IMG/VR virus record: IMGVR_UViG_3300028591_000065 | Direction: 5' to 3' (one strand) | DNA: 26,765 nucleotides | Source of the DNA: a virus | Shown here: piece by piece, positions 1,689-26,036 of the stretch | Numbering within the stretch: position 1 is the stretch's first letter | Layout of the letters: every line of letters begins with the position of its first letter | The notes under the pieces: model-generated | What the model was told of the DNA's origin: nothing | The model's input: the letters and a program-made list of their open reading frames with translations, nothing else | Databases searched by the model: none | Made by a program: the position numbers and the translations under genes

Positions 1689-1751
1689 CTTTCCCACAAT
1701 TCCCATTATGTATATGTTAATATGTTATTGTAGTGAATAATACACTACACG

Positions 1752-1776
1752 AAAGCACCTTAAATGGTGTTTTTTG
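1752..1776 (+). terminator. Candidate intrinsic terminator at the end of the early arm
   Basis: Stem AAAGCACC (1752-1759) pairs with GGTGTTTT (1766-1773) with one G-U pair, loop TTAAAT, and runs into a T-run to 1775. Confidence 0.5.
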
Positions 1777-1797
1777 TTTCACTTCAATTTGTAGTAG

Positions 1798-1962
1798 GGT
1801 TGGTTTAATAACCAACCTAGAGTAGATTACTGACATATATATATCTTTTTCCTAGACACACGAACCTTTATTAATTCAGTAGTAATCTATTCTAGGGTGT
1901 TTATTAGCAAAGCAAAAATGTAAGGAGGTATATCTCTCCAACTTACTTAACTTTATTGCTGA
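1798..1962 (+). promoter_or_regulatory. Series of three stem-loops in the ORF-free early/late spacer
   Basis: SL1: GGTTGGTT (1798-1805) / AACCAACC (1810-1817), loop TAAT. SL2: CTAGAGTAGATTACTG (1817-1832) / TAGTAATCTATTCTAG (1880-1895), 16 bp with 2 G-U pairs and a 47-nt loop. SL3: TTAGCAA (1904-1910) / TTGCTGA (1956-1962) encloses GTAAGGAG...CTCC-AAC-TTAC (1920-1946). Confidence 0.55.
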
Positions 1963-1993
1963 TAAGACCTAAAAATGGGTGCAAAAAGGGAAA

Positions 1994-2053
1994 ACGGTTG
2001 CAACATAATTGATTTGAAATAAAAAGAACGTTTGAGGGTTTACGGAGTTGCAA
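1994..2053 (+). promoter_or_regulatory. Direct repeat ACGG(AG)TTGCAA x2 upstream of the first late gene
   Basis: ACGGTTGCAA at 1994-2003 and ACGGAGTTGCAA at 2042-2053. A related GGGTGCAAAAA lies at 1977-1987. Confidence 0.35.
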
Positions 2054-2073
2054 ATAGGAAGGAGTGAAACAAA

Positions 2074-2617: not shown

Positions 2618-2806
2618 ATGGAGTTAATGGTAATTAAAAACTTTTCAAATGCTAAAGGTTCTTTTAACTTTGGAGATATTATTAAATGTACTCCAGAAGA
2701 AGCAAAGTTATTAAAAGAACAAAGGTTAGTAAAAGAATACACTAAAGTAGAAAATGAAAAGTTAGAAGTTAAAAAAGAAACTGCAGTAAAGAAGAAAAAG
2801 AAATGA
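2618..2806 (+). CDS. Small hypothetical protein with a lysine-rich tail
   Basis: 62-aa ORF. ATG is preceded by AAAAGGAGTG. ATGA overlap with the HNH gene. Confidence 0.6.
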   Translation: MELMVIKNFSNAKGSFNFGDIIKCTPEEAKLLKEQRLVKEYTKVENEKLEVKKETAVKKKKK

Positions 2807-3153
2807 ATAGATATTCAGTATACAAGTCTAAAGCGTGGGAGAATATAAGAGTATCTTATGCTAGAAGTAAAAACTGCTTATGTGAAAAGTGTGGTAGACC
2901 AATATATATGACTGGAGTAAGTGAGTACATACCAAAAGAAAAAAGATTAAAAGGTATAGTACACCATAAAATACATTTAGACGAAAGCAATTACAAAGAT
3001 GATAGTATTGCTTATGACTGGAACAACCTAGAATTATTATGTATTCAATGTCATAATGAAGAACACTTTACCAAAGGTAGTGTTAGAGATGAATATTTAT
3101 TTGATGATGAAGGAAATATAAAACCCAAGCATACCCTCCCTAGTCGGCATTAA
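2803..3153 (+). CDS. HNH endonuclease (terminase-associated)
   Basis: Motifs: CEKCGR...HHKIHL...NLELLCIQCHNEEH. Located immediately upstream of terS/terL, as in HK97-like cos phages. Confidence 0.85.
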   Translation: MNRYSVYKSKAWENIRVSYARSKNCLCEKCGRPIYMTGVSEYIPKEKRLKGIVHHKIHLDESNYKDDSIAYDWNNLELLCIQCHNEEHFTKGSVRDEYLFDDEGNIKPKHTLPSRH

Positions 3154-3247
3154 ATCAAGTGCTTTGGGGCAACGGTGTAGGGGAGTTCAAAAAAACACAC
3201 AATTTGAATACATACGAGGGGTTTTGCAAAGATATGGAGTGAAATAA
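3130..3247. other. Candidate cos / terminase recognition region
   Basis: A locally G/C-rich tract in an AT-rich genome: ACCCTCCCTAGTCGGC...GGGGCAACGGTGTAGGGGAG...GAGGGG. It lies between the HNH gene and terS. Confidence 0.35.
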
Positions 3248-3565
3248 ATGAAGATAAAACAAATTGACGAAATATTGAAAAAGATACCAGAAGATAAGAA
3301 GAACGAAGCTAGTTTAGTTGCTTCAAAACTTATGTATATGGAAGAAAAATTAAAGGAATTGCAAAAGTCTATAGACGAGCAAGGTGTTGTAGAACATTTT
3401 ATCAATGGTAAACAAGACTTTTTAAGAGAAAGTCCAGCACTAGCAAGTTATACAAAATTGATGAAAACTTATGACACATTTTATAAGAACTTAATTAACC
3501 TAGTACCAAAAGACATTGAAGTAGTCGAAATTGACGAAGATATGGACGATATATTAAATGACTAA
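3248..3565 (+). CDS. terS: Terminase small subunit (P27-like)
   Basis: 105 aa, located between HNH and terL. The segment GKQDFLRESPALASYTKLMKTY is typical of the P27 family. RBS TGGAGTG. Confidence 0.7.
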   Translation: MKIKQIDEILKKIPEDKKNEASLVASKLMYMEEKLKELQKSIDEQGVVEHFINGKQDFLRESPALASYTKLMKTYDTFYKNLINLVPKDIEVVEIDEDMDDILND

Positions 3566-5237
3566 TTGGATCATTGAGTATCATAACTGGTTATGTGAAA
3601 ACCCTATGAGGGTAAATAAGAAAATAAAAGCAGTCTATGATAGGTTGGTTAAGAATATAGAGACACCAGAAACAATAACATTTTTTAATAAACTGACTGG
3701 AGAAACTGAAACGCATACATACGTATATGATGAAGAAAAAGCAAATAGACCTATAAAGTTTTGTGAATTGTTAAAGCAGTCAAAGGGTGTATGGAGTGGT
3801 AAACCATTAAAGTTGGAACTTTTCCAGAAAGCTTTTATAAGTGCATTGTTTGGTTTTGTAGATAAAGAAACTGGTTTAAGAAAATATCGAAAAGCAGTTT
3901 TTTTTGTTGCAAGAAAAAATGGTAAATCGGTACTTGCTTCTGCAATAGCATTGTATATGTTAGTTGCTGATAAAGAAGGAGGTGCTGAAGTATACGCAGT
4001 TTCTACCAAAAAAGAACAAAGTAAAATTGTTTGGGAAGAAAGCAAACGTATGATAAAAAAGACTAAAGCATTAGATAAACGAATAAGGTGTCTAGTAGGA
4101 GGTATCTACTATGATGAAAAAGATAGTTTGTTTAGAGCTTTAGCAAGTGATAGTAATTCCCTAGACGGACTTAATAGTCATTTAGTAATTGCTGATGAAG
4201 TACACGCTTGGAAAGATAAAAACTTACTAGACGTTATGTACGATAGTATGTCAGCAAGAAGACAACCAATGCTAATTGAAACGTCCACAATGGGAACTAT
4301 AAGACAAAACGTGTTCGATATAGAATACGATTATGCTAGTCAAGTAATTGACGGAGTAGTTGAAGATGAAACATTATTACCAATAATCTATGAGTTAGAT
4401 AATGAAAACGAGTGGATCAATGAGGAGTGCTGGTATAAAGCAAACCCAAGTTTAGGAACTATTAAGTCTATAAAGAGTTTAAGGGAAAAAGTAGAACGAG
4501 CAAAAGCAAACCCTATTGAGTTAGTTAATCTTTTATGTAAAGACTTTAATATAAGACAAAATAGTATCAATGCTTGGCTGACATTTGACGAGTTAAATAA
4601 TGAAGAAATGTATAACGAGTGGAAAGACTGCTACTGCATAGGTGGAGTAGACTTGTCGAGTACAACCGATTTAACTTGTAGTACGATACTAGGAGTTAAA
4701 AATGGGAAAATACGAGTTAAGCAAATGTATTTTATACCAACTAATGCACTAGAAAAGAAAGTAATAGAAGATAAGATACCTTATGACAAATGGTTAAAGG
4801 TGGGTTATTTAAGACTTTCTGGAGATACTAAAATTGATTATCACGACGTAGTTAAATGGTTTTTAGAACAAGTGCAAGAGTTTGATTTAAGACCATTATG
4901 GGTTGGTTATGATAGTTGGAACGCACAATATTTTTGTGATGAAATGGTTAGTAATGGTTTTGATATGGTAGAAGTAAGACAAGGTTTTAAAACGGAGTCA
5001 GCACCATTAAAACAAATGAAAGCTGACTTAATAGATAAGAAGATAAACTATAATAATAACCCTATCTTAAAATGGAACTTATCTAACGTAGTAGTAAAAG
5101 TAGATGATAACGAAAATATAATGTTATCTAAAGAAAAAGCAAGACAAAGAATAGACGGAGTTGCAAGTCTAATGGACGCTTACGTTATTTATGTAAATAA
5201 GCAACAAGAATACTTAAATTATATTGGGGAGGAATAA
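3558..5237 (+). CDS. terL: Terminase large subunit
   Basis: 559 aa. Walker A-like ARKNGKS, Walker B-like LVIADEVHAW, and a C-terminal nuclease-like region. Position is canonical. Confidence 0.9.
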   Translation: MTNWIIEYHNWLCENPMRVNKKIKAVYDRLVKNIETPETITFFNKLTGETETHTYVYDEEKANRPIKFCELLKQSKGVWSGKPLKLELFQKAFISALFGFVDKETGLRKYRKAVFFVARKNGKSVLASAIALYMLVADKEGGAEVYAVSTKKEQSKIVWEESKRMIKKTKALDKRIRCLVGGIYYDEKDSLFRALASDSNSLDGLNSHLVIADEVHAWKDKNLLDVMYDSMSARRQPMLIETSTMGTIRQNVFDIEYDYASQVIDGVVEDETLLPIIYELDNENEWINEECWYKANPSLGTIKSIKSLREKVERAKANPIELVNLLCKDFNIRQNSINAWLTFDELNNEEMYNEWKDCYCIGGVDLSSTTDLTCSTILGVKNGKIRVKQMYFIPTNALEKKVIEDKIPYDKWLKVGYLRLSGDTKIDYHDVVKWFLEQVQEFDLRPLWVGYDSWNAQYFCDEMVSNGFDMVEVRQGFKTESAPLKQMKADLIDKKINYNNNPILKWNLSNVVVKVDDNENIMLSKEKARQRIDGVASLMDAYVIYVNKQQEYLNYIGEE

Positions 5238-5238
5238 T

Positions 5239-6447
5239 ATGGAACGAAGAAGTTTATTCAGTAGAATATTTGGGACTGATAATAGTAGTGAAATACCACA
5301 AACTGCAACTGAAGTGAAAGTGCTAGACGATAGCAAAGCAGTATTTACACCATATAAAGGAGATTTTCATGACGATATAGATATTCGTGCATGTGTAGAC
5401 GCAATAGCTCGTAATGGTGCTAAAATGCACCCTAGACACATACGAAACTTTAATGGCAAAATGGAAGACTTAAAAGATAACCTTTATAAGTTGTTAGCAA
5501 AGCAACCAAACGAGATACAGGACGCATATAAGTTTTATTATCAAGTAATTACAAACCTAGAATTATATAACGATAGTTTTGTATATATTCAAAGAGATAA
5601 AGACTTAAAAGTGACTGGTTTATACCCTTTAGATTTTACTGAAGGTAAACTTTATGAGTTTCAAGGTAAGTTATGGGTAAAGTTTAAGTTTGGTAGAAGT
5701 AAAGAAAGATTTGTACCTTATGACAGTTGCATACACTTAACTAGGTTCGTTGGAAAAGACGGACTATTTGGTGGTTCTACTATACCAATAATAAAGACTT
5801 TATCTATAAAACACGTAATAGATGAGGGAATAATAAATGCAATAAAGACTACACAACACATTAAAGGTATTATTAAATCTACTAAAGCTATGTTAAAACC
5901 AGAAGACGTTAAGAAAATGAGAGACCAATTCGTTGCTGATTTTATTAAATATGGAGATAAAAGTGGTATTGGTGGACTAGACGCAACAACTGATTTTACA
6001 CCAGTTAAGTTAGATCCACAAACTGCAAGTGATAGTCAAATTAAGATATTTGACAATAAAATACTTTCATACTTTGGAGTAAATGAGAATATTATTCAGT
6101 CAAAATATAGTGAAGATGAGTGGAACGCATTTTATGAAAGTGTACTAGAACCAATAGGACTACAAATGAGTTTAGAGTTCACAAATAAAATATTTACACC
6201 AACTGAAAAGAACTTTGGTAATGAAATATTATTTGAAAGTAATAGACTACAATATGCAAGTAATACTACAAAGATAAATCTATTAAGATATGCAAATAAC
6301 ATAATGACTATTAACGAGTTAAGAGAAATATTTAACCTTGCACCAGTTGAAGACGGAGACGTACGTATGCAAGACCTTAACCATGTTAGTAGTGATATAG
6401 CAAATGATTATCAATTAGGAGGAGAAGAAGGAAATGAAGGAAATTAG
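5239..6447 (+). CDS. Portal protein (HK97-family-like)
   Basis: About 402 aa directly after terL. ATG 5239 follows GGGGAGG. The track's TTG 5224 start would overlap the terL stop, so it is rejected. Confidence 0.85.
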   Translation: MERRSLFSRIFGTDNSSEIPQTATEVKVLDDSKAVFTPYKGDFHDDIDIRACVDAIARNGAKMHPRHIRNFNGKMEDLKDNLYKLLAKQPNEIQDAYKFYYQVITNLELYNDSFVYIQRDKDLKVTGLYPLDFTEGKLYEFQGKLWVKFKFGRSKERFVPYDSCIHLTRFVGKDGLFGGSTIPIIKTLSIKHVIDEGIINAIKTTQHIKGIIKSTKAMLKPEDVKKMRDQFVADFIKYGDKSGIGGLDATTDFTPVKLDPQTASDSQIKIFDNKILSYFGVNENIIQSKYSEDEWNAFYESVLEPIGLQMSLEFTNKIFTPTEKNFGNEILFESNRLQYASNTTKINLLRYANNIMTINELREIFNLAPVEDGDVRMQDLNHVSSDIANDYQLGGEEGNEGN

Positions 6448-7036: not shown

Positions 7037-7046
7037 TACAAGGGTA

Positions 7047-7076
7047 AAGACACAACTGGAATAGGGTGTCTTTTTT
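7047..7076 (+). terminator. Intrinsic terminator between the protease and capsid genes
   Basis: Stem AAGACAC (7047-7053) / GTGTCTT (7066-7072), 12-nt loop AACTGGAATAGG, T-run 7071-7076. Confidence 0.7.
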
Positions 7077-7122
7077 AGTGCTGGAATAGTGCTAGAAACT
7101 TGTTTAATAAAGACTGGAATAG
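7056..7122 (+). repeat. Three direct copies of CTGGAATAG plus an 11-nt tandem duplication
   Basis: CTGGAATAG occurs at 7056-7064 (inside the terminator loop), 7081-7089 and 7114-7122. The tandem duplication is TAGTGCTGGAA / TAGTGCTAGAA at 7076-7097. Confidence 0.85.
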
Positions 7123-7174
7123 TCGTAATGGTAGTTATACCTTAAATAGCAAAAATTAAGAAGGAGGTTTACCA

Positions 7175-8311
7175 ATGAGTAGACTTGAAGAAATTGAAGC
7201 AAGAAAACTTGAAATAAGAGAAGAACTTGAAGCAACTGAAGAAGTTGAAAAAGTTGAAGAACTTAATCAAGAAGTAGACGCTTTAAATGAAGAAGTACAA
7301 CAAATTGAAGAACATGAAGAAGAACAACAAATTGCTGAAAAAATAGAAGAAGCACCAGTTGTTCCAGAAGTTATCAAGGAGGAGAAGAAAAATATGGATA
7401 ACAAAGAATTAAGAAACACAAAAGAATACGTAGACGCATACGCTGAATACGTAAAAACTGGTAGTGATAAAGAATTAAGAGCTTTATATACTACAAACGC
7501 AACTGAAGTATCAGGCTCAGTTGAAGTACCACAAGTAGTTGAAGACATTGTAAGAACTGCTTGGCAAAGAGAAGACTTAATGCAATATGTTAGAACATTA
7601 AGTGTTAAAGGAAACTTAAAAGTTCAATTTGAAGTTTCATCAAGTGAAGCACAAGTACATTTAGAAGGTGCTGACGAACCAGTTAGTGAAGAAGAACTAG
7701 TATTAGGTATCGTAGAACTAAAACCAGTATCAATTAAAAAATGGATCGGTATTAGTGATGAAGTAGTAGATATGAGAGGAGAAGAATTCTTACGTTATAT
7801 CTATGACGAATTAACTTATAGAATTGCAAAAAAATGTGCTGATACATTAGTAGGTGCTATTGCTGGTTTACCACAAACTGCAACTGCTTCTAGTCCTTCA
7901 GCAAATAAACTTACTTTAGCACCAGCAGTAGGAACTATTGCAAATGCTATAGCTAATTTAAGTGATGAAGCAAATAACCCAGTAATTATTATGAATAAAT
8001 TAACTTATGGAAAATTTAAAGAAGTTGCTTATGCAAATGGTTATTCAGTAGATCCATTTGAAGGTTTAAGAGTTATCTTCAATAACACATTACCAGCATA
8101 CGATAGTGCTTCTTCTGGAAACGTTTATGCTATCGTTGGAGATTTAGGTTTTGGTGCAGTTGCAAACTTCCCAAACGGAGAAGGTGTTGAAATCAAATAT
8201 GATGAAACAACTTTAATGACTGACGATATTGTACGTATTTTAGGACGTAGATTTGTTGGTATGGGTGTTGTAGCTGATAAAGCATTTACTTTAATAGCAA
8301 AACCACAATAA
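7175..8311 (+). CDS. Major capsid protein (HK97 fold) with an N-terminal acidic coiled-coil delta/scaffold domain
   Basis: 378 aa with the strong RBS AAGAAGGAGG. The E-rich N-terminal ~70 aa are followed by a capsid-like body. Position after the protease is canonical. Confidence 0.85.
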   Translation: MSRLEEIEARKLEIREELEATEEVEKVEELNQEVDALNEEVQQIEEHEEEQQIAEKIEEAPVVPEVIKEEKKNMDNKELRNTKEYVDAYAEYVKTGSDKELRALYTTNATEVSGSVEVPQVVEDIVRTAWQREDLMQYVRTLSVKGNLKVQFEVSSSEAQVHLEGADEPVSEEELVLGIVELKPVSIKKWIGISDEVVDMRGEEFLRYIYDELTYRIAKKCADTLVGAIAGLPQTATASSPSANKLTLAPAVGTIANAIANLSDEANNPVIIMNKLTYGKFKEVAYANGYSVDPFEGLRVIFNNTLPAYDSASSGNVYAIVGDLGFGAVANFPNGEGVEIKYDETTLMTDDIVRILGRRFVGMGVVADKAFTLIAKPQ

Positions 8312-10156: not shown

Positions 10157-10158
10157 AA

Positions 10159-10214
10159 TACTACTCTCTTATGAGTAGTACAAAGAGAACTACTATATCG
10201 GTAGTTCTTTTTTT
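10159..10214 (+). terminator. Tandem hairpins; the second is an intrinsic terminator after the major tail gene
   Basis: Hairpin 1: TACTACTC (10159-10166) / GAGTAGTA (10173-10180). Hairpin 2: AGAACTAC (10186-10193) / GTAGTTCT (10201-10208), followed by T-run 10208-10214. Confidence 0.75.
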
Positions 10215-10238
10215 AGTATTCATAAAAGGAGGTTTTTT

Positions 10239-12458
10239 ATGGCAAGTTCAAGAATAAAGGGCATTACCATTGATATTGGAGGTAATACCCAAAAACTACA
10301 AGACGCATTGAAGGGAGTAGACAAGCAAATATATGGTTTAAATGCTGATTTAAAAGACTTAAATAAAGCATTGAAACTAGATCCAAACAATACGGAATTG
10401 TTAGCACAAAAGCAAGACGTATTAGCAAGGAATATAAAAGCTTCTACTGATAGACTAAATGCTTTAAAAGAAGCACAAAAGCAACTAGGTAGTTATAATT
10501 CATTAACTGAAGAACAAAAAGCTCAATATAATGCTTTAAGTGGAGAAATAGCAAAGACTGAAAAAGCATTAAAAGACATGAATAACGAACTTAAAGGGAC
10601 TGCAAAGATAGATTTAAGTGCGTTAAAGACTGGTTTAGCAAAAGTAGGAGATATTGCACTAGACGTTGGTAAAAAGTTAGCACAAGTCACAACTGCAATT
10701 AGTGGGGCATTGACTGGAGTAGTAAGTCTAGGAGTAAAGAGTTATGCAAGTTTAGAGCAAAACTTAGGTGGTATTGAAACTTTATTTGGAGATAGTGCTG
10801 ATAAAGTAGTAGAGAACGCCCGTAAAGCTTTTAAGACTGCTGGAGTAAGTGCTAATGAATATATGCAAGGTGTCACTTCATTTAGTGCTAGTTTATTACA
10901 AAGTTTAGGTGGTAATACTGATAAAGCAGCCGATATAGCCGATATGGCATTTAGAGATATGTCAGATAATGCTAATAAGTTTGGTACTGATATGTCATCA
11001 ATACAAAGTGCTTATCAAGGTTTTGCAAAACAAAACTATACACTCCTAGACAACCTTAAGCTCGGTTATGGGGGAACTAAAACCGAAATGGAAAGACTAC
11101 TTAAAGACGCTTCTAAAATAAGTGGAGTTAAGTACGATATTAAAAACCTAAGTGACGTATACGAAGCAATACATGTTATACAAGGAGAATTAAAAGTCAC
11201 TGGTACAACTGCAAAAGAAAGTGCAAGTACAATTAGTGGTTCAGTACAAACAATGAAGTCAGCTTTTGACAACTTTATTAATGGTTCTGGTGGTGCTGAA
11301 GATTTAATTGAAAGTGTTAATAATGTTTTAACAAATGTATCTAATGCAGTAATAAAAATAGCACCTAGTATTTTAAGTGGTATACCTAAATTAATATCTA
11401 GTTTATTACCACAAATAGGACAAATGATAGTAAATCTTGCACCTCAATTATTCCAGTCAGTTAGTCAAATGATAACGCAAATATTAGACATGGTAAAAGG
11501 AGACACAACTGGTTTACAAAATACAATAAGTTCATTAGTAGAAAGTATCGTGACTTTCTTTACTGAAAACTTACCAAAGATAATTGAAATAGCATTGACT
11601 ATATTAGTCACACTAACTGAAAGCATTGCTAATAATTTAGACACAATAGTACCAGCAATAGTAGACTGCGTTATAACAATAGTAAATACTTTAATTGATA
11701 ATTTAGATATGATAATAGACGCTGGTATCAAGTTAATAATTGCACTTGCTGAAAGTATAACTGATCCAAAGACATTAAAGAAATTAATAGACGCAGTACC
11801 AAAGATAATTACAACTATAGTCACAACTTTAGTAAAGAACTTTCCAAAGATAGTTTCTGCTGGAGTTCAAATTATAGGAAGTTTGGCAACTGGTTTATAT
11901 AATGCTTTTAGTATGATAAGAGATAAAGCATTTGAATTATTGAATAACTTTAAAGACTGGTTATTAGAAGGTTTATGGAAAATAAAAGACGTTGGTAAAG
12001 AATTAATAAGTGGTTTATGGAGTGGTTTAACTGAAAAGTGGGACAGCTTAAAGAATAGTGTTAAGAACTTTGGAGAAGGAGTAGTAAATAAGTTTAAAAA
12101 TGTATTTGGCATAGCTTCTCCAAGTAAAGTATTTAAAAAGGTTATAGGTACTAATTTAGCATTAGGAATAAGTGAAGGTTTTACTGAAGAAATGAATAAA
12201 GTTTCAACTGATATGACTAAGTCAATACCAGTAGACGATTTAATAGGAGAATATGATACTGCAATGCGTAGTTTAACCAGAGGAATTAATTCAAGTGTTA
12301 ACCCAACAATAAACCCAAGTATCACATACGAGCAAAATTACTCAATGATGAGTAAAGCAATGAAAGAAGCTTTAAACGATATGGTAGTAGACTTAGACGA
12401 TAGAGAAGTAGGAAGATTCGTTAGTAAAACAATAACTAACGAAGTATATGGGAGGTAG
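10239..12458 (+). CDS. Tail tape measure protein
   Basis: 739 aa. The N-terminus IKGITIDIGGNTQKLQDALKGVDKQI is typical of Firmicutes tape measure proteins. The protein is long, helical and hydrophobic. Position is canonical. Confidence 0.85.
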   Translation: MASSRIKGITIDIGGNTQKLQDALKGVDKQIYGLNADLKDLNKALKLDPNNTELLAQKQDVLARNIKASTDRLNALKEAQKQLGSYNSLTEEQKAQYNALSGEIAKTEKALKDMNNELKGTAKIDLSALKTGLAKVGDIALDVGKKLAQVTTAISGALTGVVSLGVKSYASLEQNLGGIETLFGDSADKVVENARKAFKTAGVSANEYMQGVTSFSASLLQSLGGNTDKAADIADMAFRDMSDNANKFGTDMSSIQSAYQGFAKQNYTLLDNLKLGYGGTKTEMERLLKDASKISGVKYDIKNLSDVYEAIHVIQGELKVTGTTAKESASTISGSVQTMKSAFDNFINGSGGAEDLIESVNNVLTNVSNAVIKIAPSILSGIPKLISSLLPQIGQMIVNLAPQLFQSVSQMITQILDMVKGDTTGLQNTISSLVESIVTFFTENLPKIIEIALTILVTLTESIANNLDTIVPAIVDCVITIVNTLIDNLDMIIDAGIKLIIALAESITDPKTLKKLIDAVPKIITTIVTTLVKNFPKIVSAGVQIIGSLATGLYNAFSMIRDKAFELLNNFKDWLLEGLWKIKDVGKELISGLWSGLTEKWDSLKNSVKNFGEGVVNKFKNVFGIASPSKVFKKVIGTNLALGISEGFTEEMNKVSTDMTKSIPVDDLIGEYDTAMRSLTRGINSSVNPTINPSITYEQNYSMMSKAMKEALNDMVVDLDDREVGRFVSKTITNEVYGR

Positions 12459-20217: not shown

Positions 20218-20484
20218 ATGAAGTATTTAGTATTATATGAAAGAACCAACGGAGATATGCTATATAGGTATAGGAAAAGTTTACCAGAATATGAAGTTGG
20301 ATCGTATACCTCAATGGGTTGGAAATTAGTTGACATAAAAGTATTAGATAAAGGTAAATGTCTTTCTATGTATGACTACTCTACTTCTGTATCTAATAGA
20401 GTAGTAGGGTTGACACAACGCATTGACTACCGAAAAATCGTTGAATATATGCTCTTATTAGCATTAATTAAAATTATTTTGTAA
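20218..20484 (+). CDS. Hypothetical first early protein with a hydrophobic C-terminus
   Basis: 88-aa ORF with a strong SD, directly downstream of P1. C-terminal segment: VEYMLLLALIKIIL. Confidence 0.65.
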   Translation: MKYLVLYERTNGDMLYRYRKSLPEYEVGSYTSMGWKLVDIKVLDKGKCLSMYDYSTSVSNRVVGLTQRIDYRKIVEYMLLLALIKIIL

Positions 20485-20500
20485 AGTTTTAAAATTACTA

Positions 20501-20529
20501 TTGCAACCAATATATATGTATGTTAAAAT
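20501..20529 (+). promoter_or_regulatory. Sigma-A-type promoter with extended -10 (early P2)
   Basis: TTGCAA (20501-20506), 17-nt spacer ending in TGT, TAAAAT (20524-20529). Confidence 0.7.
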
Positions 20530-20535
20530 TAAAAT

Positions 20536-20652
20536 GTAATGAAGGTACGAGATACCTTTTAAAAATACTTTAACAAGTTAACATAATATATATATTAACA
20601 AATAGAGTATTTTAAAAGAAACGAACCTCATTACTAGAAATGAGGTTTTTTT
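20536..20652 (+). ncRNA. Predicted ~115-nt structured leader / small RNA ending at an intrinsic terminator
   Basis: Hairpin AAGGTA (20542-20547) / TACCTT (20553-20558). A long AU stem pairs 20556-20569 with 20606-20618. The terminator spans 20624-20652. No SD-preceded ORF is present. Confidence 0.45.
20624..20652 (+). terminator. Intrinsic terminator whose 3' arm contains the SD of the next gene
   Basis: Stem AACCTCATT (20624-20632) / AATGAGGTT (20639-20647), loop ACTAGA, T-run 20646-20652. GAGG at 20642-20645 lies 8 nt upstream of ATG 20654. Confidence 0.8.
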
Positions 20653-20653
20653 A

Positions 20654-20851
20654 ATGTATTACAACTTTTATGCAGAACTCAAAAAGAGAAATTGGAAGCA
20701 AAGTGATTTAGCTAACTTCTTAGGAATAACAATAACAACTTGCAACCAGAAGCTATTAGGCAACTTCTCATGGGACATTAAAGATATAAAGAAATGTCTT
20801 AAAGAGTTTAATACCACATTTGAATATTTATTTGAAACTAAGGAGGACTAA
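20654..20851 (+). CDS. Cro-like HTH regulator (XRE/DUF739-like)
   Basis: 65 aa. HTH-like segment: WKQSDLANFLGITITTCNQKLLGNFSWDIKDIKK. Confidence 0.6.
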   Translation: MYYNFYAELKKRNWKQSDLANFLGITITTCNQKLLGNFSWDIKDIKKCLKEFNTTFEYLFETKED

Positions 20852-20853
20852 AT

Positions 20854-21042
20854 ATGAAAGTTAATATTAAAGGTTTTATTGCTTTATTTGTAATGTTATT
20901 TGTTATAGGTTTTATCGGTTATGATTTTATACAACTTGTAAAAGGTGGAACTTACACATTTTATGGAATAGCAACACTTATACTTGTAATTTATGCTGGT
21001 TATTTATCAAGCAGTTATATTGAAGCAAGAATAAAGAGGTAG
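20854..21042 (+). CDS. Small membrane protein (two TM segments)
   Basis: 62 aa. Hydrophobic segments: FIALFVMLFVIGFIGY and GIATLILVIYAGYL. RBS AAGGAGGA. Confidence 0.6.
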   Translation: MKVNIKGFIALFVMLFVIGFIGYDFIQLVKGGTYTFYGIATLILVIYAGYLSSSYIEARIKR

Positions 21043-21044
21043 AT

Positions 21045-21761
21045 ATGGCTGAAAGAAGAATGTTTGCAAAAACAATAATAGATAGTGACGCATTTTTAGA
21101 AATGCCTATGAGTGCAAGACTACTTTATTATGATTTATCAATGAGAGCTGATGATGACGGGTTTGTTAATTCCCCAAAAAAAATAATGAAGTTTGTAGGT
21201 GCTACCAATGACGATATGAATATCTTAATAGGTAGAAAGTTCGTAATAGCATTTGATAATGGGGTAGTAGTTATAAAGCATTGGAGAATACATAACTACA
21301 TAAGAAAAGACACTTATAATGAAACACCATATACCGAACAAAAAGCACTTTTAGAACTAGATGAAAAGAACGCATATAGACTTAAAAATAATGATAGTCA
21401 ACGAGAAGTCGACGGGGCGTTGACACAGGTTAGGTTAGGTAAGGTAAGTATAGATAAGAAAGAAGAAGATATATACGAGGCAATTTTAACTTTTAAATCA
21501 AACTTAACACCAACTGACTATGAAATGATAAACGAAGTCATTGATAAGTATAGTTTAGAGCAATTTAAAGAAGCTATTGAGATAAGTAAGTCTAATAATG
21601 CAAAGACAATTAAATATTTATTACAAGTCTTAAAAAACCCTATAAAGAATAAAAAGGTTGTTATAAGACCTAAATGGTTAGACGAAGATATTAAAGGAGT
21701 GGACTTAAGTTTAAATGAAGAAGAAGAACGAGAACTTGCTGAAATTATTAAAGGAACATAA
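21045..21761 (+). CDS. Phage replisome organizer / DnaD-domain replication initiation protein
   Basis: The N-terminus MAERRMFAKTIIDSDAFLEMPMSARLLYYDLSMRADDDGFVNSPKKI is characteristic of the replisome organizer N-terminal region. The C-terminal part is DnaD-like: ...FKEAIEISKSNNAKTIKYLLQVLKN. Confidence 0.8.
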   Translation: MAERRMFAKTIIDSDAFLEMPMSARLLYYDLSMRADDDGFVNSPKKIMKFVGATNDDMNILIGRKFVIAFDNGVVVIKHWRIHNYIRKDTYNETPYTEQKALLELDEKNAYRLKNNDSQREVDGALTQVRLGKVSIDKKEEDIYEAILTFKSNLTPTDYEMINEVIDKYSLEQFKEAIEISKSNNAKTIKYLLQVLKNPIKNKKVVIRPKWLDEDIKGVDLSLNEEEERELAEIIKGT

Positions 21762-21924
21762 ACCAATAAGAATATTCGTATTAGAAAGTGATTTTGGAAT
21801 ATTTGACTATGATCCAAGCAAGGAAATATATCAAGGGCAATTTGGTTATATATCTATAAGAGCATTATATAAATCGTTAAATGGGAGTGAAGAATTAAAT
21901 CATTTAAGAATTGAGGAAGTTTAA
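21715..21924 (+). CDS. Hypothetical protein (start uncertain)
   Basis: 69-aa ORF overlapping the previous gene by 47 nt. No clear SD. An alternative TTG start lies at 21736. Confidence 0.45.
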   Translation: MKKKNENLLKLLKEHKPIRIFVLESDFGIFDYDPSKEIYQGQFGYISIRALYKSLNGSEELNHLRIEEV

Positions 21925-22130
21925 TGGAAGATAGAATATTAGCTTATTTAAAGCAAAATAAATCAATTACAACGTGGGAAGCAATAAGGGAGTTTGGTTG
22001 TACTAGATTATCACATTATATATGGGCGTTAAGAAAAGAATATAACATAACTGACGAGTGGGAACACACTACTAATAGATATGGAGATAAAGTCAAATAT
22101 AAAAAGTATATTCTGGAGGACTTATGTTAG
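21924..22130 (+). CDS. Winged-helix/HTH_39-like DNA-binding protein
   Basis: 68 aa. The pattern ILAYLKQNKSITTWEAIREFGCTRLSHYIWALRKEYNI...NRYGDKVKYKKY matches the common small phage HTH family. Confidence 0.65.
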   Translation: MEDRILAYLKQNKSITTWEAIREFGCTRLSHYIWALRKEYNITDEWEHTTNRYGDKVKYKKYILEDLC

Positions 22131-22276
22131 AGTGGTACGCAAGTCAAGTATGGTTATTACTTAAAATAGTCTTTTGTTTTTTCATAATATACGAACTAAT
22201 AAAGGTGGTTGCAAGAGATGTCAAGGAAGAAGCATTTAAGAGTAAAAGAAAAACTAGACAATATCATAAAAGATAA
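22124..22276 (+). CDS. Possible small membrane protein (50 aa), not in the ORF track
   Basis: ATG 22124 lies 3 nt after GGAGGA. Hydrophobic core: VWLLLKIVFCFFIIY. The ORF overlaps the next gene by ~59 nt, so it is doubtful. Confidence 0.3.
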   Translation: MLEWYASQVWLLLKIVFCFFIIYELIKVVARDVKEEAFKSKRKTRQYHKR

Positions 22277-22460
22277 TTGTAATCAATATTGTTATAACTG
22301 CAAACACACTTTATATTTTAACCCAAGACAAGAAAAAAAGAATTGTGACTATTGTGGGGCATTAAATAAGAATAAAACAAGAGCATATTTTAGATATAAC
22401 TTTTATCAAGCAAGACAAAAAATGGAAGATTATAAAATTATCAAATTGGAGGAGAAATAA
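22218..22460 (+). CDS. Zinc-ribbon protein
   Basis: ATG 22218 lies 9 nt after AAAGGTGG. Cysteine pairs: CYNCKH...CDYCG. The track's TTG 22209 start is less likely. Confidence 0.6.
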   Translation: MSRKKHLRVKEKLDNIIKDNCNQYCYNCKHTLYFNPRQEKKNCDYCGALNKNKTRAYFRYNFYQARQKMEDYKIIKLEEK

Positions 22461-22462
22461 AT

Positions 22463-23017
22463 ATGACAAAATATGAAGATATTAAAAAAGCAAATGAAAG
22501 TTTAAGTTCATTAGACGTTAAAGGAAAAGATTATATACAAGTAAATGAAAGAGTTAAAGCTTTCCGTATGGTGTACCCAGAAGGCACGATCCAAACTGAA
22601 ATGCTTTCAAATGATAATGGAGTATGTGTATTTAAAGCAAGTGCATACAATGGAGATAAATTACTAGCAACAGGACACGCATACGAAAAAGAAGGTAGTA
22701 CATTTATCAATAAGACTTCATATATCGAAAATTGTGAAACAAGTGCAATAGGACGTTGCTTAGGTATGTGTGGTTTTGGAATTGATACAAGTATAGCAAG
22801 TGCTGAAGAAGTACAAAATGCTATCAATAACCAAGAAGAAGACGACTTTAAAGAACATAACAATTTAGAAATGGCATTAGATAAACTTATCGAACAAGAA
22901 AATGTAGATTATGACAAATTAGTAGAAAAGTATAAAACTGATGACATACACAAAATGAGTGTTAAGCAATTAAAGAACGCAATAGAAAATATAGACAAGT
23001 TTGAGAAGGTGGCATAA
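22463..23017 (+). CDS. Putative single-strand annealing protein (Rad52/Sak-like)
   Basis: 184 aa. The pattern KGKDYIQVNERVKAFRMVYPEG...ENCETSAIGRCLGMCGFGI resembles the Rad52-like phage recombinase core. The gene lies near ssb and a NinB-like gene. Motif-level recognition only. Confidence 0.45.
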   Translation: MTKYEDIKKANESLSSLDVKGKDYIQVNERVKAFRMVYPEGTIQTEMLSNDNGVCVFKASAYNGDKLLATGHAYEKEGSTFINKTSYIENCETSAIGRCLGMCGFGIDTSIASAEEVQNAINNQEEDDFKEHNNLEMALDKLIEQENVDYDKLVEKYKTDDIHKMSVKQLKNAIENIDKFEKVA

Positions 23018-23295
23018 TGGAAACTTATATCAAAATAGATGATGAAATAGAAACAATAAAAGAAGCATATATAACTACTTGTAGTTCACGAGAAAGTGGT
23101 TTAAAGCAATTTGAAAATAACACTATAGAAATAAACGATAGTATATATATAAGCACAAGAGAATTGAAAGATTTAATTTATTATTTAGTTGAGGCATGTG
23201 GTGGTTTAGAAGACGAATTGACTGATATACGAAGTGAAGAATATGCAGAGGACTGGGGTAGTGATATTGAGTTTGAAAGACAAAGGGGTAATTAA
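23017..23295 (+). CDS. Hypothetical acidic protein
   Basis: 92-aa ORF with ATGA-type coupling to the upstream gene. Confidence 0.55.
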   Translation: METYIKIDDEIETIKEAYITTCSSRESGLKQFENNTIEINDSIYISTRELKDLIYYLVEACGGLEDELTDIRSEEYAEDWGSDIEFERQRGN

Positions 23296-23296
23296 T

Positions 23297-23425
23297 ATGC
23301 GTATAGAAAAAGACATAATACTAAACAAGTACATTGTGTGGGAAACATACAGGAATTATATGGTGGAAAGATTTAGAGGAAATAAAAAACAATGCAAGGA
23401 GTGGATCAATAATGTTAAAAAGTAG
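23297..23425 (+). CDS. Small hypothetical protein (42 aa)
   Basis: ATG 23297 follows AAAGGGG. The track's longer 23234 start overlaps the previous gene. Confidence 0.45.
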   Translation: MRIEKDIILNKYIVWETYRNYMVERFRGNKKQCKEWINNVKK

Positions 23426-23669
23426 AGAAGAAATAACAAAACAATGTGGAGAGCTAATAGATACAATAGGAGAACTATTTGACGATAAAATCAAGTATGA
23501 AAGAAAGTTTTGTGAAGAAGCAAGAAAAAGAAAAGAAACTGAAAACGAATTAATAGATAAAAACATTAGAATAGAAAAGGCATTAACTTTATTAAAAAAT
23601 AATATAGGTAATAATGCAGTTGAGTTAAGAGTAGAAGCTATAAAAATATTGGAGGGTACTAATGAATAG
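23412..23669 (+). CDS. Hypothetical coiled-coil protein (85 aa)
   Basis: ATG 23412 follows AAGGAGTGG. The track's 23334 start lacks an SD and overlaps the upstream ORF. Confidence 0.5.
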   Translation: MLKSREEITKQCGELIDTIGELFDDKIKYERKFCEEARKRKETENELIDKNIRIEKALTLLKNNIGNNAVELRVEAIKILEGTNE

Positions 23670-24045
23670 TGTGTCATTAATTGGAAGGCTGACTCGAGAT
23701 AGTGAGTTAAGAGAAAACGAAAAAGGAACAAAAGTAAGTTCATTTACATTAGCTATAGCAAGAGATGAAAATACAACTGATTTTATAAATTGCACTTGTT
23801 TTAATAAAACAGCAGAAGTATTAAATAAATATACAAAAAAAGGTAGTCAAGTTGGAGTAATAGGAAGAATACAAACAAGAACCTATGAAGAAGAAAATAA
23901 AAAAAGAACTATAACTTATGTATTAGTAGATAAACTTGTCTTACTAGGCAAAAAAGAAAGCACAGAAGAAACAAATAAAGGCTTTGAGGGTAATTCACTA
24001 TATCAAGATGAAATAGTACTTACAGGGGATGATTTACCATTTTGA
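23662..24045 (+). CDS. ssb: Single-stranded DNA-binding protein
   Basis: OB-fold pattern: VSLIGRLTRDSELRENEKGTKVSSFTLAIAR...VGVIGRIQTRTYE. Acidic C-terminal tip: DDLPF. Confidence 0.9.
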   Translation: MNSVSLIGRLTRDSELRENEKGTKVSSFTLAIARDENTTDFINCTCFNKTAEVLNKYTKKGSQVGVIGRIQTRTYEEENKKRTITYVLVDKLVLLGKKESTEETNKGFEGNSLYQDEIVLTGDDLPF

Positions 24046-24368
24046 GAACAATGTTAAATTATTTGAAAAGCTACATAGAAAAAGAATATGGCATTGACTT
24101 TAAATTAGTAATTAGTGAACCAACAAACTATGAAAAATATGAGGAGTTAGTTTATAAAGTAGGTAAACAAGAATATACATTGTCAGTAGGTTATGCTTAT
24201 AGTTGTAAACAAGAAAGGCAAGTATGGAGTATATATACAGACTTTATGGACTATAAAGAGTGGTATGGGTATGGTGGTGCTTATGAAGATGAAGGAAGTA
24301 AAACCATAGATGAAATAATGCAAAAATGGGGTTTTAAAAAATCAAATCAACAAATGAGTTTATTTTAG
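24042..24368 (+). CDS. Hypothetical protein
   Basis: 108-aa ORF with a 4-nt overlap with ssb. Confidence 0.55.
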   Translation: MRTMLNYLKSYIEKEYGIDFKLVISEPTNYEKYEELVYKVGKQEYTLSVGYAYSCKQERQVWSIYTDFMDYKEWYGYGGAYEDEGSKTIDEIMQKWGFKKSNQQMSLF

Positions 24369-24377
24369 GAGGTATAT

Positions 24378-24824
24378 ATGCAAGAACTAATTAATAGACT
24401 ATTTCAATTAAATACATACCAATTAAGCAAAGTAAATGAGTTTATAGATAATCTACTAAACCCTAAAAAACATAGAAGTTTATCACAAAATGCTTATATG
24501 TGGCAATTAATAAACGAGATAGGGGTAAAGGTAAGAAAGAGCAAAGAAGAAGTATACTTGCAGATGTTAAAAGATTATGGGGTAAGTGAAATAGTGAGTA
24601 TGCTTTCTTCTATTTCTCCTAAAGGGTTCTTTAAATATTATGAAGCAATAGGAACAGGAATAGTAAACAATAAAGAGTTTACTCATTATAAGATTTATAA
24701 AGGTAGTAGTGAATATGACACAAAAGAAATGAGTGTACTAATAGACGGCGTAATACAAGAAGCTGAAAATCTAGGTATACCTACTTTAACAAAAGAAGAA
24801 ATAGAAAAAATGAGGTTAATATGA
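24378..24824 (+). CDS. NinB/Orf-like recombination mediator candidate
   Basis: HRSLSQNAYMWQLINEIG ... YKGSSEYDTKEMSVLIDGVIQEAENLGIP parallels lambda NinB (RSLDQN..LW ... STS.M...EF.ELLE.IQAFG) by eye. Confidence 0.45.
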   Translation: MQELINRLFQLNTYQLSKVNEFIDNLLNPKKHRSLSQNAYMWQLINEIGVKVRKSKEEVYLQMLKDYGVSEIVSMLSSISPKGFFKYYEAIGTGIVNNKEFTHYKIYKGSSEYDTKEMSVLIDGVIQEAENLGIPTLTKEEIEKMRLI

Positions 24825-25354: not shown

Positions 25355-25370
25355 TAAAGGAGTGATAACA

Positions 25371-26033: not shown

Positions 26034-26036
26034 AAT

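What the first reader, a model, noticed from the sequence alone, without database searches (positions are those of the whole stretch)
1798..1895. Two adjacent stem-loops at the start of the late arm: candidate cis-acting RNA (put-like antitermination element, origin or packaging signal)
The 385 nt between the last early gene and the first late gene contain no credible ORF. Directly after the early terminator candidate there is a perfect GC-rich 8-bp hairpin with a tetraloop (1798-1817). It abuts a 16-bp stem (1817-1832 / 1880-1895) that has two positions pairing only as G-U, which favours an RNA-level structure over a DNA-level one. That stem encloses a 47-nt AT-rich loop including ACATATATATATC.

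Downstream, the late arm carries strong intrinsic terminators inside what should be a single operon (7047-7076 and 10186-10214). No Q/N-type antiterminator protein is recognisable. One coherent hypothesis is a cis-acting RNA that makes RNA polymerase terminator-resistant, analogous to the HK022 put RNAs or the Bacillus EAR element. Alternative explanations are an origin of replication or a regulator binding platform.
Basis: inference. Interest (0 to 1): 0.65.

Follow-up and report, generated by a model that had tools for sequence, protein, structure and literature searches.

The report
Conserved phage RNA scaffold module
The two stem-loops are real and are one diverged copy of a widespread, apparently unnamed structured RNA module of gut and rumen phages, which has three covarying helices, two complementary hairpin loops and a hypervariable insert that is occasionally a tRNA; nothing specific supports an antitermination role.

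Summary
The hairpin is at 1798-1817. The 15-16 bp stem is 1817/1818-1832 with 1880-1895, has two G.U pairs and encloses 47 nt.

It is not a one-off. A covariance model built without the window scores 1797-1911 at 40.6 bits (E 1.6e-5). About 140 distinct copies occur in ~100 uncultivated phage or prophage loci, with hosts among gut and rumen Bacilli and Clostridia.

Architecture: hairpin H1, a 0-1 nt linker, long stem P2, GG, hairpin H3. All helices covary. G.U outnumbers A.C by 183:11, and copies are co-oriented with flanking genes, so it acts as RNA on the + strand. The H1 and H3 loops are complementary and covary (z = 11.6).

The P2 tip carries a hypervariable insert of ~13-145 nt (108 sequence clusters among 132). 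It is sometimes an independently structured RNA or a tRNA.

Copies sit at the early/late junction before the terminase genes, in tRNA islands, and between portal and scaffold genes. Rfam 15, GenBank phages and the literature search gave no match.

Best reading: an RNA scaffold or processing cassette. The put-like antitermination, origin and packaging readings are not supported.

The parts
1691..1731 (+). Conserved motif TTCCCACAATTCCCA...GTTAATATG, a candidate late promoter or regulator site that lies upstream of the module. Context only, not part of the module.
   Evidence: It is 85% identical over 41 nt to the stretch that directly follows the phrog_36 regulator gene in L128. L010 has TTCCCACATTTCCCAC at the same place. 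Its function is inferred.
1729..1749 (+). Small hairpin GUAGUGA/UCACUAC between the motif and the terminator.
   Evidence: MFE fold of 1722-1780, z = -4.33. Not tested for conservation.
1751..1779 (+). Intrinsic-terminator-like hairpin (GAAAGCACC..GGUGUUUUU) plus U-run, 20 nt upstream of the module.
   Evidence: Terminator scan and fold. L128 has an equivalent terminator just before its homologous module. Across the family, 14 of 133 units have one within 120 nt upstream.
1798..1817 (+). H1, the 5' hairpin. In the family register the stem is 1799-1804 with 1811-1816 and the loop is 1805-1810 (UUAAUA).
   Evidence: The H1 stem covaries in the family: 99.3% of cells paired and 5 of 6 pairs with changes on both sides (that set was pre-selected for H1 pairing). 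The unselected CM alignment shows the same.
1818..1832 (+). P2 5' arm, UAGAGUAGAUUACUG. C1817 can alternatively pair with G1895.
   Evidence: P2 is 93-99% paired, with 10-13 pairs changed on both sides and 0 of 500 shuffles as good.
1833..1879 (+). Variable insert ('cargo') at the tip of P2, 47 nt, AT-rich and unique to this phage.
   Evidence: Family inserts run from ~13 to 145 nt; 132 inserts fall into 108 sequence clusters, 91 of them singletons. No significant antisense target in the window (13-nt best match; 17 of 200 shuffles do as well).
1880..1895 (+). P2 3' arm, UAGUAAUCUAUUCUA(G), containing the family's most conserved string AUCUAUUCUA.
1896..1911 (+). Junction GG plus the H3 region, GGUGUUUAUUAGCAAA. 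Positions 1902-1907 (UAUUAG) are complementary to the H1 loop 1805-1810. The canonical H3 3' strand is missing.
   Evidence: The CM match ends at 1911. Loop-loop complementarity covaries family-wide. The closest relative, L128, has GGUG-UUUAUUAG-CACC.
1896..1969 (+). Window-specific extended hairpin that replaces the short H3. GGU/ACC closes it, and 11 further pairs sequester the UUAUUAG loop-partner.
   Evidence: MFE -21 kcal/mol, z = -3.77. Not seen in relatives, so it is an insertion into H3 or a sign of decay (inference).
10158..10241 (+). Possible second, degenerate copy.
   Evidence: R1 scores 20.1 bits, E 0.011, with filters off. However, the MFE is a single long hairpin, z = -7.65. Ambiguous.

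Best explanation
Window 1797-1911 is a diverged single copy of a conserved, multi-copy structured RNA module of uncultivated phages of low-GC gut and rumen bacteria.

Shown:
- It is transcribed with the flanking genes on the + strand and folds into hairpin H1, a long stem P2 and hairpin H3. There is no closing helix between the flanks.
- The H1 and H3 loops are complementary and covary.
- The distal end of P2 carries a hypervariable insert. In relatives this insert is often an independently structured small RNA and occasionally a complete tRNA.

Inferred:
- The conserved part is a scaffold, and the insert is what differs in function between copies.
- The H1-H3 loop pairing clamps the base of P2. 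This isolates the insert from the surrounding mRNA and gives a defined, nuclease-resistant or nuclease-recognised structure.
- The module would therefore work as a processing and stability punctuation mark within polycistronic phage transcripts, releasing or protecting the embedded RNA and the downstream mRNA segment.
- The same complementarity allows an alternative extended hairpin of roughly 25-30 bp. That is a plausible substrate for a double-strand-specific RNase, so processing could run through a switch between the two folds.
- The window copy keeps H1, P2, GGUG and the loop complementarity but has lost the short H3. It may be weakened.
For: - Family membership: R1 scores 40.6 bits, E 1.6e-5, and the window was not in the seed. 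The closest variant sits in L128 in tandem with a canonical copy.
- Abundance: 83 of 129 exact hits to a 14-base pattern in IMG/VR carry the complete module. About 138 distinct units occur in 98 loci, 1-4 per locus.
- Helices: P2 is 93% paired against 82% in shuffles, with 13 of 15 pairs changed on both sides. In the 51-core alignment H1 is 99.3% paired, the loop-loop helix 94.4% (5 of 6 pairs changed on both sides) and P2 98.9%. No shuffle of 500 did as well, and slid controls gave 32-48%.
- Loop-loop permutation test: observed mean run 6.19 against 5.19 +/- 0.09, 0 of 20000 permutations, z = 11.6.
- RNA strand: 2005 Watson-Crick pairs, 262 G.U and 13 A.C. Copies are co-oriented with flanking genes.
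- Conservation stops at the outer edges of H1 and H3, and the flanks do not pair with each other.
- Insert: 108 clusters among 132 inserts. One 7-member insert family has its own covarying helices. tRNA-Glu and tRNA-Arg lie inside P2, and the Rfam tRNA model matches with the acceptor stem supplied by P2.
- Position: intergenic, at the early/late junction before TerS, TerL and portal genes of different types, and also between portal and scaffold genes. A separate tRNA gene lies within 300 nt of 34 of 137 units, always on the same strand.
- Cassette turnover: L001 and L002 differ by exactly one unit.
- Two folds: the extended hairpin is predicted to be more stable in 112 of 136 units, by a median 3.25 kcal/mol, when any loop-loop contact energy is ignored. 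The difference is 0.6 kcal/mol in the window.
Against: - No transcript, cleavage or stability data exist, so the mechanism is inference from anatomy and position.
- No nuclease or partner protein is identified. The commonest neighbouring protein cluster is present in only 19 of 98 loci.
- Only about 8 of 137 inserts are tRNA-like, and many short inserts (~13-30 nt) may be nothing more than a loop.
- Loop covariation cannot tell a kissing contact within one molecule from one between molecules, or from the extended hairpin.
- The window copy lacks a proper H3, is preceded by a terminator, and has a cargo with no relatives. It could be a decaying copy.
- Alignments A4 and A5 were fitted to, or selected with, the model. 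This inflates the percentage of paired cells, though not the compensatory changes.
Confidence: 0.45

Rival explanations
1. Self-assembling RNA. This builds rings or larger RNA-only assemblies that display or enclose the variable insert, as phi29 pRNA does in its ring and as ROOL and GOLLD do in nanocages.
For: - The loop-loop pairing of 5-9 nt covaries strongly.
- Two short hairpins (6 and 4-5 bp), joined by 1-2 nt to the same helix end, may be strained if they form a 5-7 bp contact within one molecule (my own geometric estimate).
- The context matches what is reported for GOLLD and ROOL. These are encoded in phages and prophages, often near tRNA islands, with tRNAs sometimes in the variable linker, and are held together by covarying intermolecular kissing loops (PMC12286853; PMC5737381).
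- Here 34 of 137 units lie within 300 nt of a tRNA gene, and some hold a tRNA.
- No conserved partner protein was found.
Against: - The conserved core is about 65-70 nt, against more than 500 nt for ROOL and GOLLD.
- Their Rfam models do not match.
- The complementarity is equally well explained within one molecule, either as a kissing contact or as the extended hairpin.
- No experimental data exist.
Confidence: 0.15
2. One reading: a cis-acting processive antitermination RNA (like put or EAR, or conAn2-like with a protein partner) that makes RNA polymerase read through the terminators of the late operon.
For: - It lies at the start of the late arm, downstream of a conserved promoter-like motif (1691-1731) shared with L128.
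- It is a compact multi-hairpin RNA with helices joined by 0-2 nt. putRNA is about 70 nt with two stem-loops (PMC9378689).
- Terminator-like hairpins exist in the late arm.
- In L128 one module precedes a terminator.
- Sequence conservation across unrelated phages would fit binding to a host factor such as RNA polymerase.
Against: - No Rfam match, even at E <= 10.
- In the window the module lies after the adjacent terminator, not before it.
- Tandem arrays, hypervariable and tRNA-containing inserts, copies inside tRNA islands and copies between portal and scaffold genes are all unexplained by this model.
- Only 25 of 133 units have a terminator-like hairpin within 120 nt downstream.
- The phage has a sigma-region-4-like late regulator.
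- The 10186 'terminator' may itself be part of a degenerate module copy.
Confidence: 0.08
3. A selfish or neutral repeat. It would be a MITE-like element with about 30-nt terminal inverted repeats, or a recombination linker that shuffles cassettes, with no RNA function of its own.
For: - Conserved ends flank a variable interior, and the ends form a long imperfect inverted repeat.
- It is multi-copy and patchily distributed among unrelated phages.
- Gain or loss of one whole unit by recombination between the conserved 3' halves is seen between L001 and L002.
Against: - Compensatory changes keep three separate helices plus the loop-loop pairing.
- The G.U to A.C asymmetry is 183:11.
- Orientation relative to genes is strongly biased, 63/72 and 62/73, whereas a DNA transposon should insert either way.
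- The H1 and H3 stems differ from each other, so the ends are not a simple inverted repeat.
- The interior is hypervariable rather than family-specific.
- No transposase was found and no target duplications were noticed. The latter was not tested systematically.
Confidence: 0.08
4. A DNA-level site: a replication origin, a pac or cos packaging signal, or a platform of inverted repeats for a regulator protein.
For: - It is an inverted repeat with an AT-rich centre in a non-coding gap, next to the packaging genes.
Against: - The strand asymmetry of wobble pairs and compensatory changes with free sequence are not expected for duplex DNA sites.
- The arm spacing varies from ~13 to 145 nt.
- The same module occurs with different terminase types and at other positions in the genome.
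- The probable cos lies at 3153-3248, between HNH and TerS, and several related contigs end 0.6-2.6 kb downstream of the phrog_709 gene (inference).
- The replication genes are about 7 kb away on the circular map.
Confidence: 0.03

Closest known systems
GOLLD and ROOL RNAs (large phage and prophage ncRNAs)
   Same: They are encoded in phages and prophages, often near tRNA islands, and a tRNA is sometimes found inside the variable or linker region. They have covarying kissing loops, unknown function and no known protein partner (PMC12286853; PMC5737381). Here 34 of 137 units have a tRNA gene within 300 nt, 2 hold an ARAGORN-called tRNA and about 8 hold a T-loop.
   Different: The core here is about 65-70 nt with 3 helices, against roughly 580-800+ nt with many junctions. 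There is no sequence or model similarity (Rfam scans). Copies occur in tandem arrays. Oligomerisation is untested.
phi29 pRNA (packaging RNA)
   Same: It is a three-helix junction with two hairpin loops that are complementary to each other and covary among relatives, and it is encoded next to the packaging genes. Topologically the module is a circular permutation of that junction (my own knowledge of pRNA).
   Different: There is no Rfam match. These phages use TerS, TerL and a portal rather than the phi29-type gp16 motor. The module also occurs away from packaging genes and carries variable cargo.
HK022 put RNA, Bacillus EAR and pLS20 conAn2 (RNA-based processive antitermination)
   Same: They are compact hairpin RNAs in an operon leader that act in cis. 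put is about 70 nt with two stem-loops just downstream of a promoter (PMC9378689). These three are the known RNA-based antiterminators (PMC8191782).
   Different: No homology was found. The module here has three helices plus a loop-loop pairing, variable cargo and tandem or dispersed copies, and it lies downstream of the adjacent terminator in this window. Function is untested.
RNase III processing hairpins of phage polycistronic mRNAs (T7 R sites, SP82 early RNA, lambda sib)
   Same: They are conserved intergenic hairpins, several per genome and co-oriented with transcription, which punctuate polycistronic mRNAs and set segment stability (established knowledge, from memory). The extended-hairpin fold of about 25-30 bp would be a suitable substrate.
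   Different: Those sites have no flanking hairpins with complementary loops and no cargo. Cleavage is not shown here.
tRNA and tRNA-like structures
   Same: In some copies the distal P2 (AGAUAUA/UAUAUCU) is the acceptor stem of a tRNA-like body with D and T arms (RF00005 at 42-47 bits). The order H1 - 1 nt - P2 - 2 nt - H3, with interacting loops, mirrors D arm - anticodon arm - T arm.
   Different: The window copy is not tRNA-like. There is no acceptor-like closing helix around the module. The loop contact is a Watson-Crick helix, not a D-loop/T-loop elbow.

Membership tests
New H1-P2-H3 phage RNA module (defined here) | A 5' hairpin H1 of about 6 bp (consensus GCUACC-UUAUA-GGUAGC), directly abutting P2 with a 0-1 nt linker. 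| tested here: met
   Window 1798-1817, GGUUGGUU-UAAU-AACCAACC, has a different sequence but keeps the pairing. The same variant occurs in L128.
New H1-P2-H3 phage RNA module (defined here) | A P2 stem with 5' UAGAGUAGAU and 3' AUCUAUUCUA, and a conserved G.U at the sixth pair. | tested here: met
   1818-1827 with 1885-1894 is an exact match, and G1822.U1890 is the conserved wobble.
New H1-P2-H3 phage RNA module (defined here) | An invariant GGUG after P2, followed by a short H3 hairpin. | tested here: inconclusive
   GGUG is present at 1896-1899. The H3 3' strand is absent and is replaced by a 74-nt extended hairpin closed by GGU/ACC.
New H1-P2-H3 phage RNA module (defined here) | The H1 loop is complementary to the H3 loop. 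| tested here: met
   1805-1810 (UUAAUA) pairs with 1902-1907 (UAUUAG) in 6 pairs, one of them U.G.
New H1-P2-H3 phage RNA module (defined here) | A significant score against a covariance model that was built without this sequence. | tested here: met
   40.6 bits, E 1.6e-5, over the full model. With filters off, the long insert makes the alignment fail, at 10.7 bits.
New H1-P2-H3 phage RNA module (defined here) | Intergenic, on the same strand as the flanking genes, typically between the early or regulatory genes and the packaging genes. | tested here: met
   It lies between 1536-1688 and 2074-2433, about 1.3 kb upstream of TerS (3248).
HK022 put RNA | Sequence and structure similarity to putL/putR: two stem-loops, about 70 nt. 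| tested here: not met
   Three helices with a loop-loop pairing. No RNA family matched in the Rfam scan even at E <= 10. I did not verify that Rfam holds a put model. Features taken from PMC9378689.
HK022 put RNA | Located just downstream of the promoter and upstream of the terminators it suppresses. | tested here: inconclusive
   A promoter-like conserved motif lies at 1691-1731, but the nearest terminator (1751-1774) lies before the module. The late-arm terminators lie after it.
HK022 put RNA | Binds the RNA polymerase beta' zinc-binding domain and confers terminator read-through in cis. | not testable with these tools
   Needs transcription assays.
EAR (eps-associated RNA) / conAn2 | Homology to the described elements. 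For conAn2, an adjacent conAn1 gene on a conjugative element. | tested here: not met
   No Rfam hit. The context is a phage late operon rather than an eps operon or a conjugation operon (PMC8191782).
GOLLD / ROOL | A match to the Rfam models; a large (>500 nt) multi-junction fold. | tested here: not met
   No hits in the window or in 28 related loci. The core here is about 70 nt.
GOLLD / ROOL | Phage or prophage location near tRNA islands, with a tRNA sometimes inside the variable region. | tested here: met
   Met at family level. The window itself has no tRNA.
phi29 pRNA | A match to the pRNA model and co-occurrence with a phi29-type packaging ATPase and connector. | tested here: not met
   No Rfam hit. 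The packaging genes here are HNH, TerS, TerL and portal.
tRNA | A cloverleaf detected by ARAGORN or RF00005. | tested here: not met
   None in the window. It is met only by the inserts of some relatives.
MITE / TIR transposon remnant | Insertion in either orientation, ends that are simple inverted repeats, and a family-specific interior. | tested here: not met
   Orientation is biased, 63/72 and 62/73. The H1 and H3 stems differ and each covaries internally. The interior is hypervariable. Target duplications were not tested.
cos / pac site or replication origin | A duplex DNA site next to its cognate terminase or replication genes, with fixed spacing of the protein-binding repeats. | tested here: not met
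   Spacing varies from ~13 to 145 nt. Wobble pairs are strand-asymmetric. It occurs with different terminase families. Cleavage and initiation are not testable here.

The most novel reading that the evidence does not exclude
The module is a previously unnamed class of phage RNA: a small, sequence-conserved clamp or switch. In this way it presents a rapidly diversifying library of small structured RNAs (pseudoknots, tRNA mimics, tRNAs). It would be a cassette system for RNA cargo, exchanged between phages by recombination at the conserved arms and used as decoys or effectors against host factors or defences.
Probability: 0.2. Interest if true: 0.9.

Novelty: categorically new. Interest (0 to 1): 0.75.

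Why it matters
If the family is what it appears to be, it is one of the more abundant unnamed structured RNAs of gut and rumen phages.

Its design is unusual: an invariant scaffold of about 65 nt, a covarying loop-loop contact, two near-isoenergetic folds, and a hypervariable insert that can be a whole tRNA.

It shares with GOLLD and ROOL the unexplained link between phages, tRNA islands and ornate RNAs, but it is small enough for direct biochemistry. That makes the open question of what tRNA-island-associated phage RNAs do more tractable. It may also offer a natural RNA scaffold for engineering.

For annotating this window, it replaces a speculative antiterminator with a defined family member.

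Tried and rejected
- Rfam at gathering and at permissive E-values, on the window and 28 related loci: only tRNA matched.
- GenBank phages by blastn with a consensus core: chance hits only.
- tRNA scan of the window: none.
- A closing, acceptor-like helix between the flanks, which would make the module a full cloverleaf: observed complementarity 5.02 against 5.00 permuted, so rejected.
- An antisense target of the window's insert within the window: the 13-nt best match is within the chance range.
- A conserved neighbouring protein as partner: the largest cluster is in 19 of 98 loci and the types are heterogeneous.
- Closer relatives of the window's GGUUGG variant: the IMG/VR and JGI metagenome scans found only the L128 contig, so the window-specific insert and extended H3 could not be tested for conservation.
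- Independent sRNA gene with its own promoter and terminator: there is no conserved promoter or U-run in the flank profiles. Terminator-like hairpins lie within 120 nt in only 10% (upstream) and 19% (downstream) of units.
- A short ORF starting at the AUG in CUAUGGUG: the frame is not kept because the H3 loop length varies (inspection).
- A hammerhead, pistol, hatchet or twister ribozyme: the Rfam scans returned no ribozyme-family match above threshold, and P2 is an ordinary helix in sequence-divergent subfamilies.
- The CM with filters off mis-aligns long-insert copies, apparently through a window-length limit, so its 10.7-bit result for the window was discarded in favour.
- Supplements of the two large csRNA catalogues are not held. 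A full-text search for the core sequence found nothing.
Full report
**1.

The window is a ~30% GC phage genome. Its map is:
- early genes at 20218-26604 and 26-1688;
- a 385-nt gap at 1689-2073 with no ORF above 39 aa;
- a phrog_709 gene at 2074-2433, an HNH gene at 2803-3153, TerS at 3248-3565, TerL at 3558-5237 and portal at 5224-6447.

GGTTGGTT-TAAT-AACCAACC (1798-1817) and the stem 1817-1832 / 1880-1895, with its two G.U pairs and 47-nt loop, are exactly as described. Energetically they are unremarkable: z = -2.4, and the opposite strand folds better. The case for reality therefore rests on comparison with relatives.

**2. It belongs to a large family.**

Loci encoding relatives of the downstream phrog_709 protein carry 2-3 tandem copies of the same arrangement upstream of that gene. 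Half-site profiles found about 138 distinct units in 98 loci, at 1-4 per locus.

The consensus, 5' to 3', is:
- H1: GCUACC-UUAUA-GGUAGC;
- a single A;
- the P2 5' arm: UAGAGUAGAUAU;
- an insert of ~13-145 nt;
- the P2 3' arm: AUAUCUAUUCUAU;
- GG;
- H3: UGC-UUAUAAA-GCA.

Conservation ends at the outer edges of H1 and H3. Covariance model R1 was built from 16 cores with the insert trimmed and without the window. It finds window 1797-1911 at 40.6 bits, E 1.6e-5. The only close relative of the window's GGUUGG variant is in L128, where it sits in tandem with a canonical copy.

**3. It is a structured RNA on the + strand.**

- On 45 natural copies, P2 is 93% paired against 82% in shuffles, with 13 of 15 pairs changed on both sides.
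- Subfamilies have entirely different P2 sequences that still pair.
- In 107 distinct CM-aligned copies there are 2005 Watson-Crick pairs, 262 G.U and only 13 A.C. That asymmetry is not expected of a duplex DNA palindrome.
- Units are co-oriented with the upstream gene in 63 of 72 cases and with the downstream gene in 62 of 73.
- The flanks do not pair with each other.

**4. The loop-loop complementarity.**

The H1 and H3 loops are reverse complements and change together. Examples are UUAUA/UAUAA, UUAAUU/AAUUAA, UAGUA/UACUA, UUGCAG/CUGCAA and UUUCGAGA/UCUUGAAA. In the window the pair is UUAAUA (1805-1810) with UAUUAG (1902-1907). A permutation test on 125 distinct loop pairs gives z = 11.6, with 0 of 20000 permutations as high. 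On an ungapped 51-core alignment this helix is 94.4% paired, with 5 of 6 pairs changed on both sides.

The same complementarity also allows an alternative fold. In it, the H1 loop and 3' strand pair with GGUG and the H3 loop, extending P2 into a hairpin of about 25-30 bp with one invariant G.G mismatch. If any kissing-contact energy is ignored, this fold is predicted to be more stable in 112 of 136 units, by a median 3.25 kcal/mol; in the window the difference is 0.6 kcal/mol.

Compensatory changes support the H1 and H3 hairpins themselves. The data therefore fit either a three-hairpin fold closed by a kissing contact, or a switch between the two folds. Sequence analysis cannot decide between these, nor between a contact within one molecule and one between molecules.

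**5. The insert.**

The 132 inserts fall into 108 sequence clusters, 91 of them singletons. One 7-member family has its own covarying helices. ARAGORN calls tRNA-Glu and tRNA-Arg inside two units, and 7 inserts have a T-loop-like motif; another (L053) was seen by eye. The Rfam tRNA model matches with the acceptor stem supplied by distal P2.

L001 and L002 differ by exactly one unit, bounded by the conserved 3' halves. The window's 47-nt insert has no relatives and no significant antisense target in the window.

**6. Context.**

- Downstream neighbours are TerS-like proteins, TerL of two types and portal proteins. Upstream neighbours are phrog_36 regulators, a Holliday-junction resolvase and HNH-like proteins.
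- Extra copies lie between portal and scaffold/capsid genes.
- 34 of 137 units have a separate tRNA gene within 300 nt, always on the same strand.
- Host genomes that carry the pattern are gut and rumen MAGs labelled Bacilli, 'Tenericutes', Coprobacillaceae, Christensenellaceae and Clostridia, among others.
- No GenBank phage has it.

In the window the module follows three upstream features. The first is a motif at 1691-1731 that is 85% identical to the stretch after the regulator gene in L128. The second is a small hairpin. The third is a terminator-like hairpin at 1751-1774. The window's own phrog_36 regulator is at 25499-25888.

**7. Interpretation.**

The anatomy points to a conserved scaffold carrying a variable RNA domain inside polycistronic transcripts. 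The features that fit are a conserved frame, a free insert, tandem and dispersed intergenic copies, membership of tRNA islands and the absence of a conserved protein neighbour.

I favour a processing and stability cassette (0.45). In this reading the clamp isolates and protects the insert and marks a processing point, possibly through the extended double-stranded fold.

The rivals are:
- put-like antitermination (0.08);
- a selfish repeat (0.08);
- a DNA site (0.03).

The remainder is unassigned, which includes a decaying copy. The window copy lacks a proper H3, which is replaced by a 74-nt hairpin that sequesters the loop partner.

**8. Novelty.**

Rfam 15 holds no matching family. No paper in the library prints the core sequence, and targeted searches found no description. 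A catalogue of 8495 anonymous IMG/VR candidate structures exists (PMC10690425) and may include the motif, but its files are not held. I therefore rate it categorically new as a described kind, with that caveat.

Noticed in passing
R1 gives 20.1 bits, E 0.011. The MFE, however, is a single long hairpin (z = -7.65), so this is an ambiguous degenerate second copy, lying between the 209-aa and 739-aa tail-region ORFs.
   Followed up: partly
window 7040-7125 (+): The nonamer CTGGAATAG recurs three times, starting at 7056, 7082 and 7115, each within a predicted hairpin, in the gap before the major capsid gene (7175-8311). This could be a repeated protein-binding or regulatory RNA motif.
   Followed up: no
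window 1691-1731; L128 5181-5141; L010 upstream region: The conserved TTCCCACAATTCCCA...GTTAATATG motif directly follows the sigma-region-4-like (phrog_36) regulator gene in L128 and L010. In the window it follows the last early gene. It is a candidate late promoter or regulator binding site, followed in both the window and L128 by a terminator.
   Followed up: partly
window 3153-3248: A GC-rich stretch, GGGGCAACGGTGTAGGGGAG, lies in the HNH-TerS gap of an AT-rich genome. Several related contigs end 0.6-2.6 kb after the phrog_709 gene. This is the likely cos site.
   Followed up: no
window 1975-2060; L003, L005, L006 and L008 just upstream of the phrog_709 gene: TGCAA-containing repeats (GGGTGCAAAAAGG, GGTTGCAAC, GAGTTGCAAATAGG) lie between the module and the first late gene. 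Relatives have ATGGGAAGGAC...GGTGGGAATGGGTG at the same place. This is an unexplained conserved leader.
   Followed up: no
L005 3511, L049 2669, L074 2702, L132 4526: In the first unit of these arrays, the stop codon of the upstream HNH-like 130-aa gene (...AAAAGATGTTTGTAG) lies inside the H1 region. The coding sequence therefore runs into the module.
   Followed up: no
L004 3254-3383; L041 8910-9054; L053 2463-2610: Complete or near-complete tRNAs are nested in P2: Glu-UUC in L004 and Arg-ACG with an enlarged variable region in L041. The module's stem extends the acceptor stem by about 6 bp, so leader and trailer are paired.
   Followed up: partly
L021, L029, L041, L068, L101, L131 and L148 inserts: A shared ~60-nt insert family has covarying helices and an apparent pseudoknot (UGUUCUA/UAGAACA changing to UGUUAUA/UAUAACA and UGUCUUA/UAAGACA). 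It is carried in scaffolds of different phages.
   Followed up: partly
L011, L012, L021, L043, L095, L131 and L136: In one subfamily the module is bracketed by terminator-like hairpins. One lies immediately upstream (AGCACTC..GAGTGCTTTTATTAT, then H1) and, in most of these loci, another about 10 nt downstream of H3. This hints that some copies end, or begin, transcripts.
   Followed up: no
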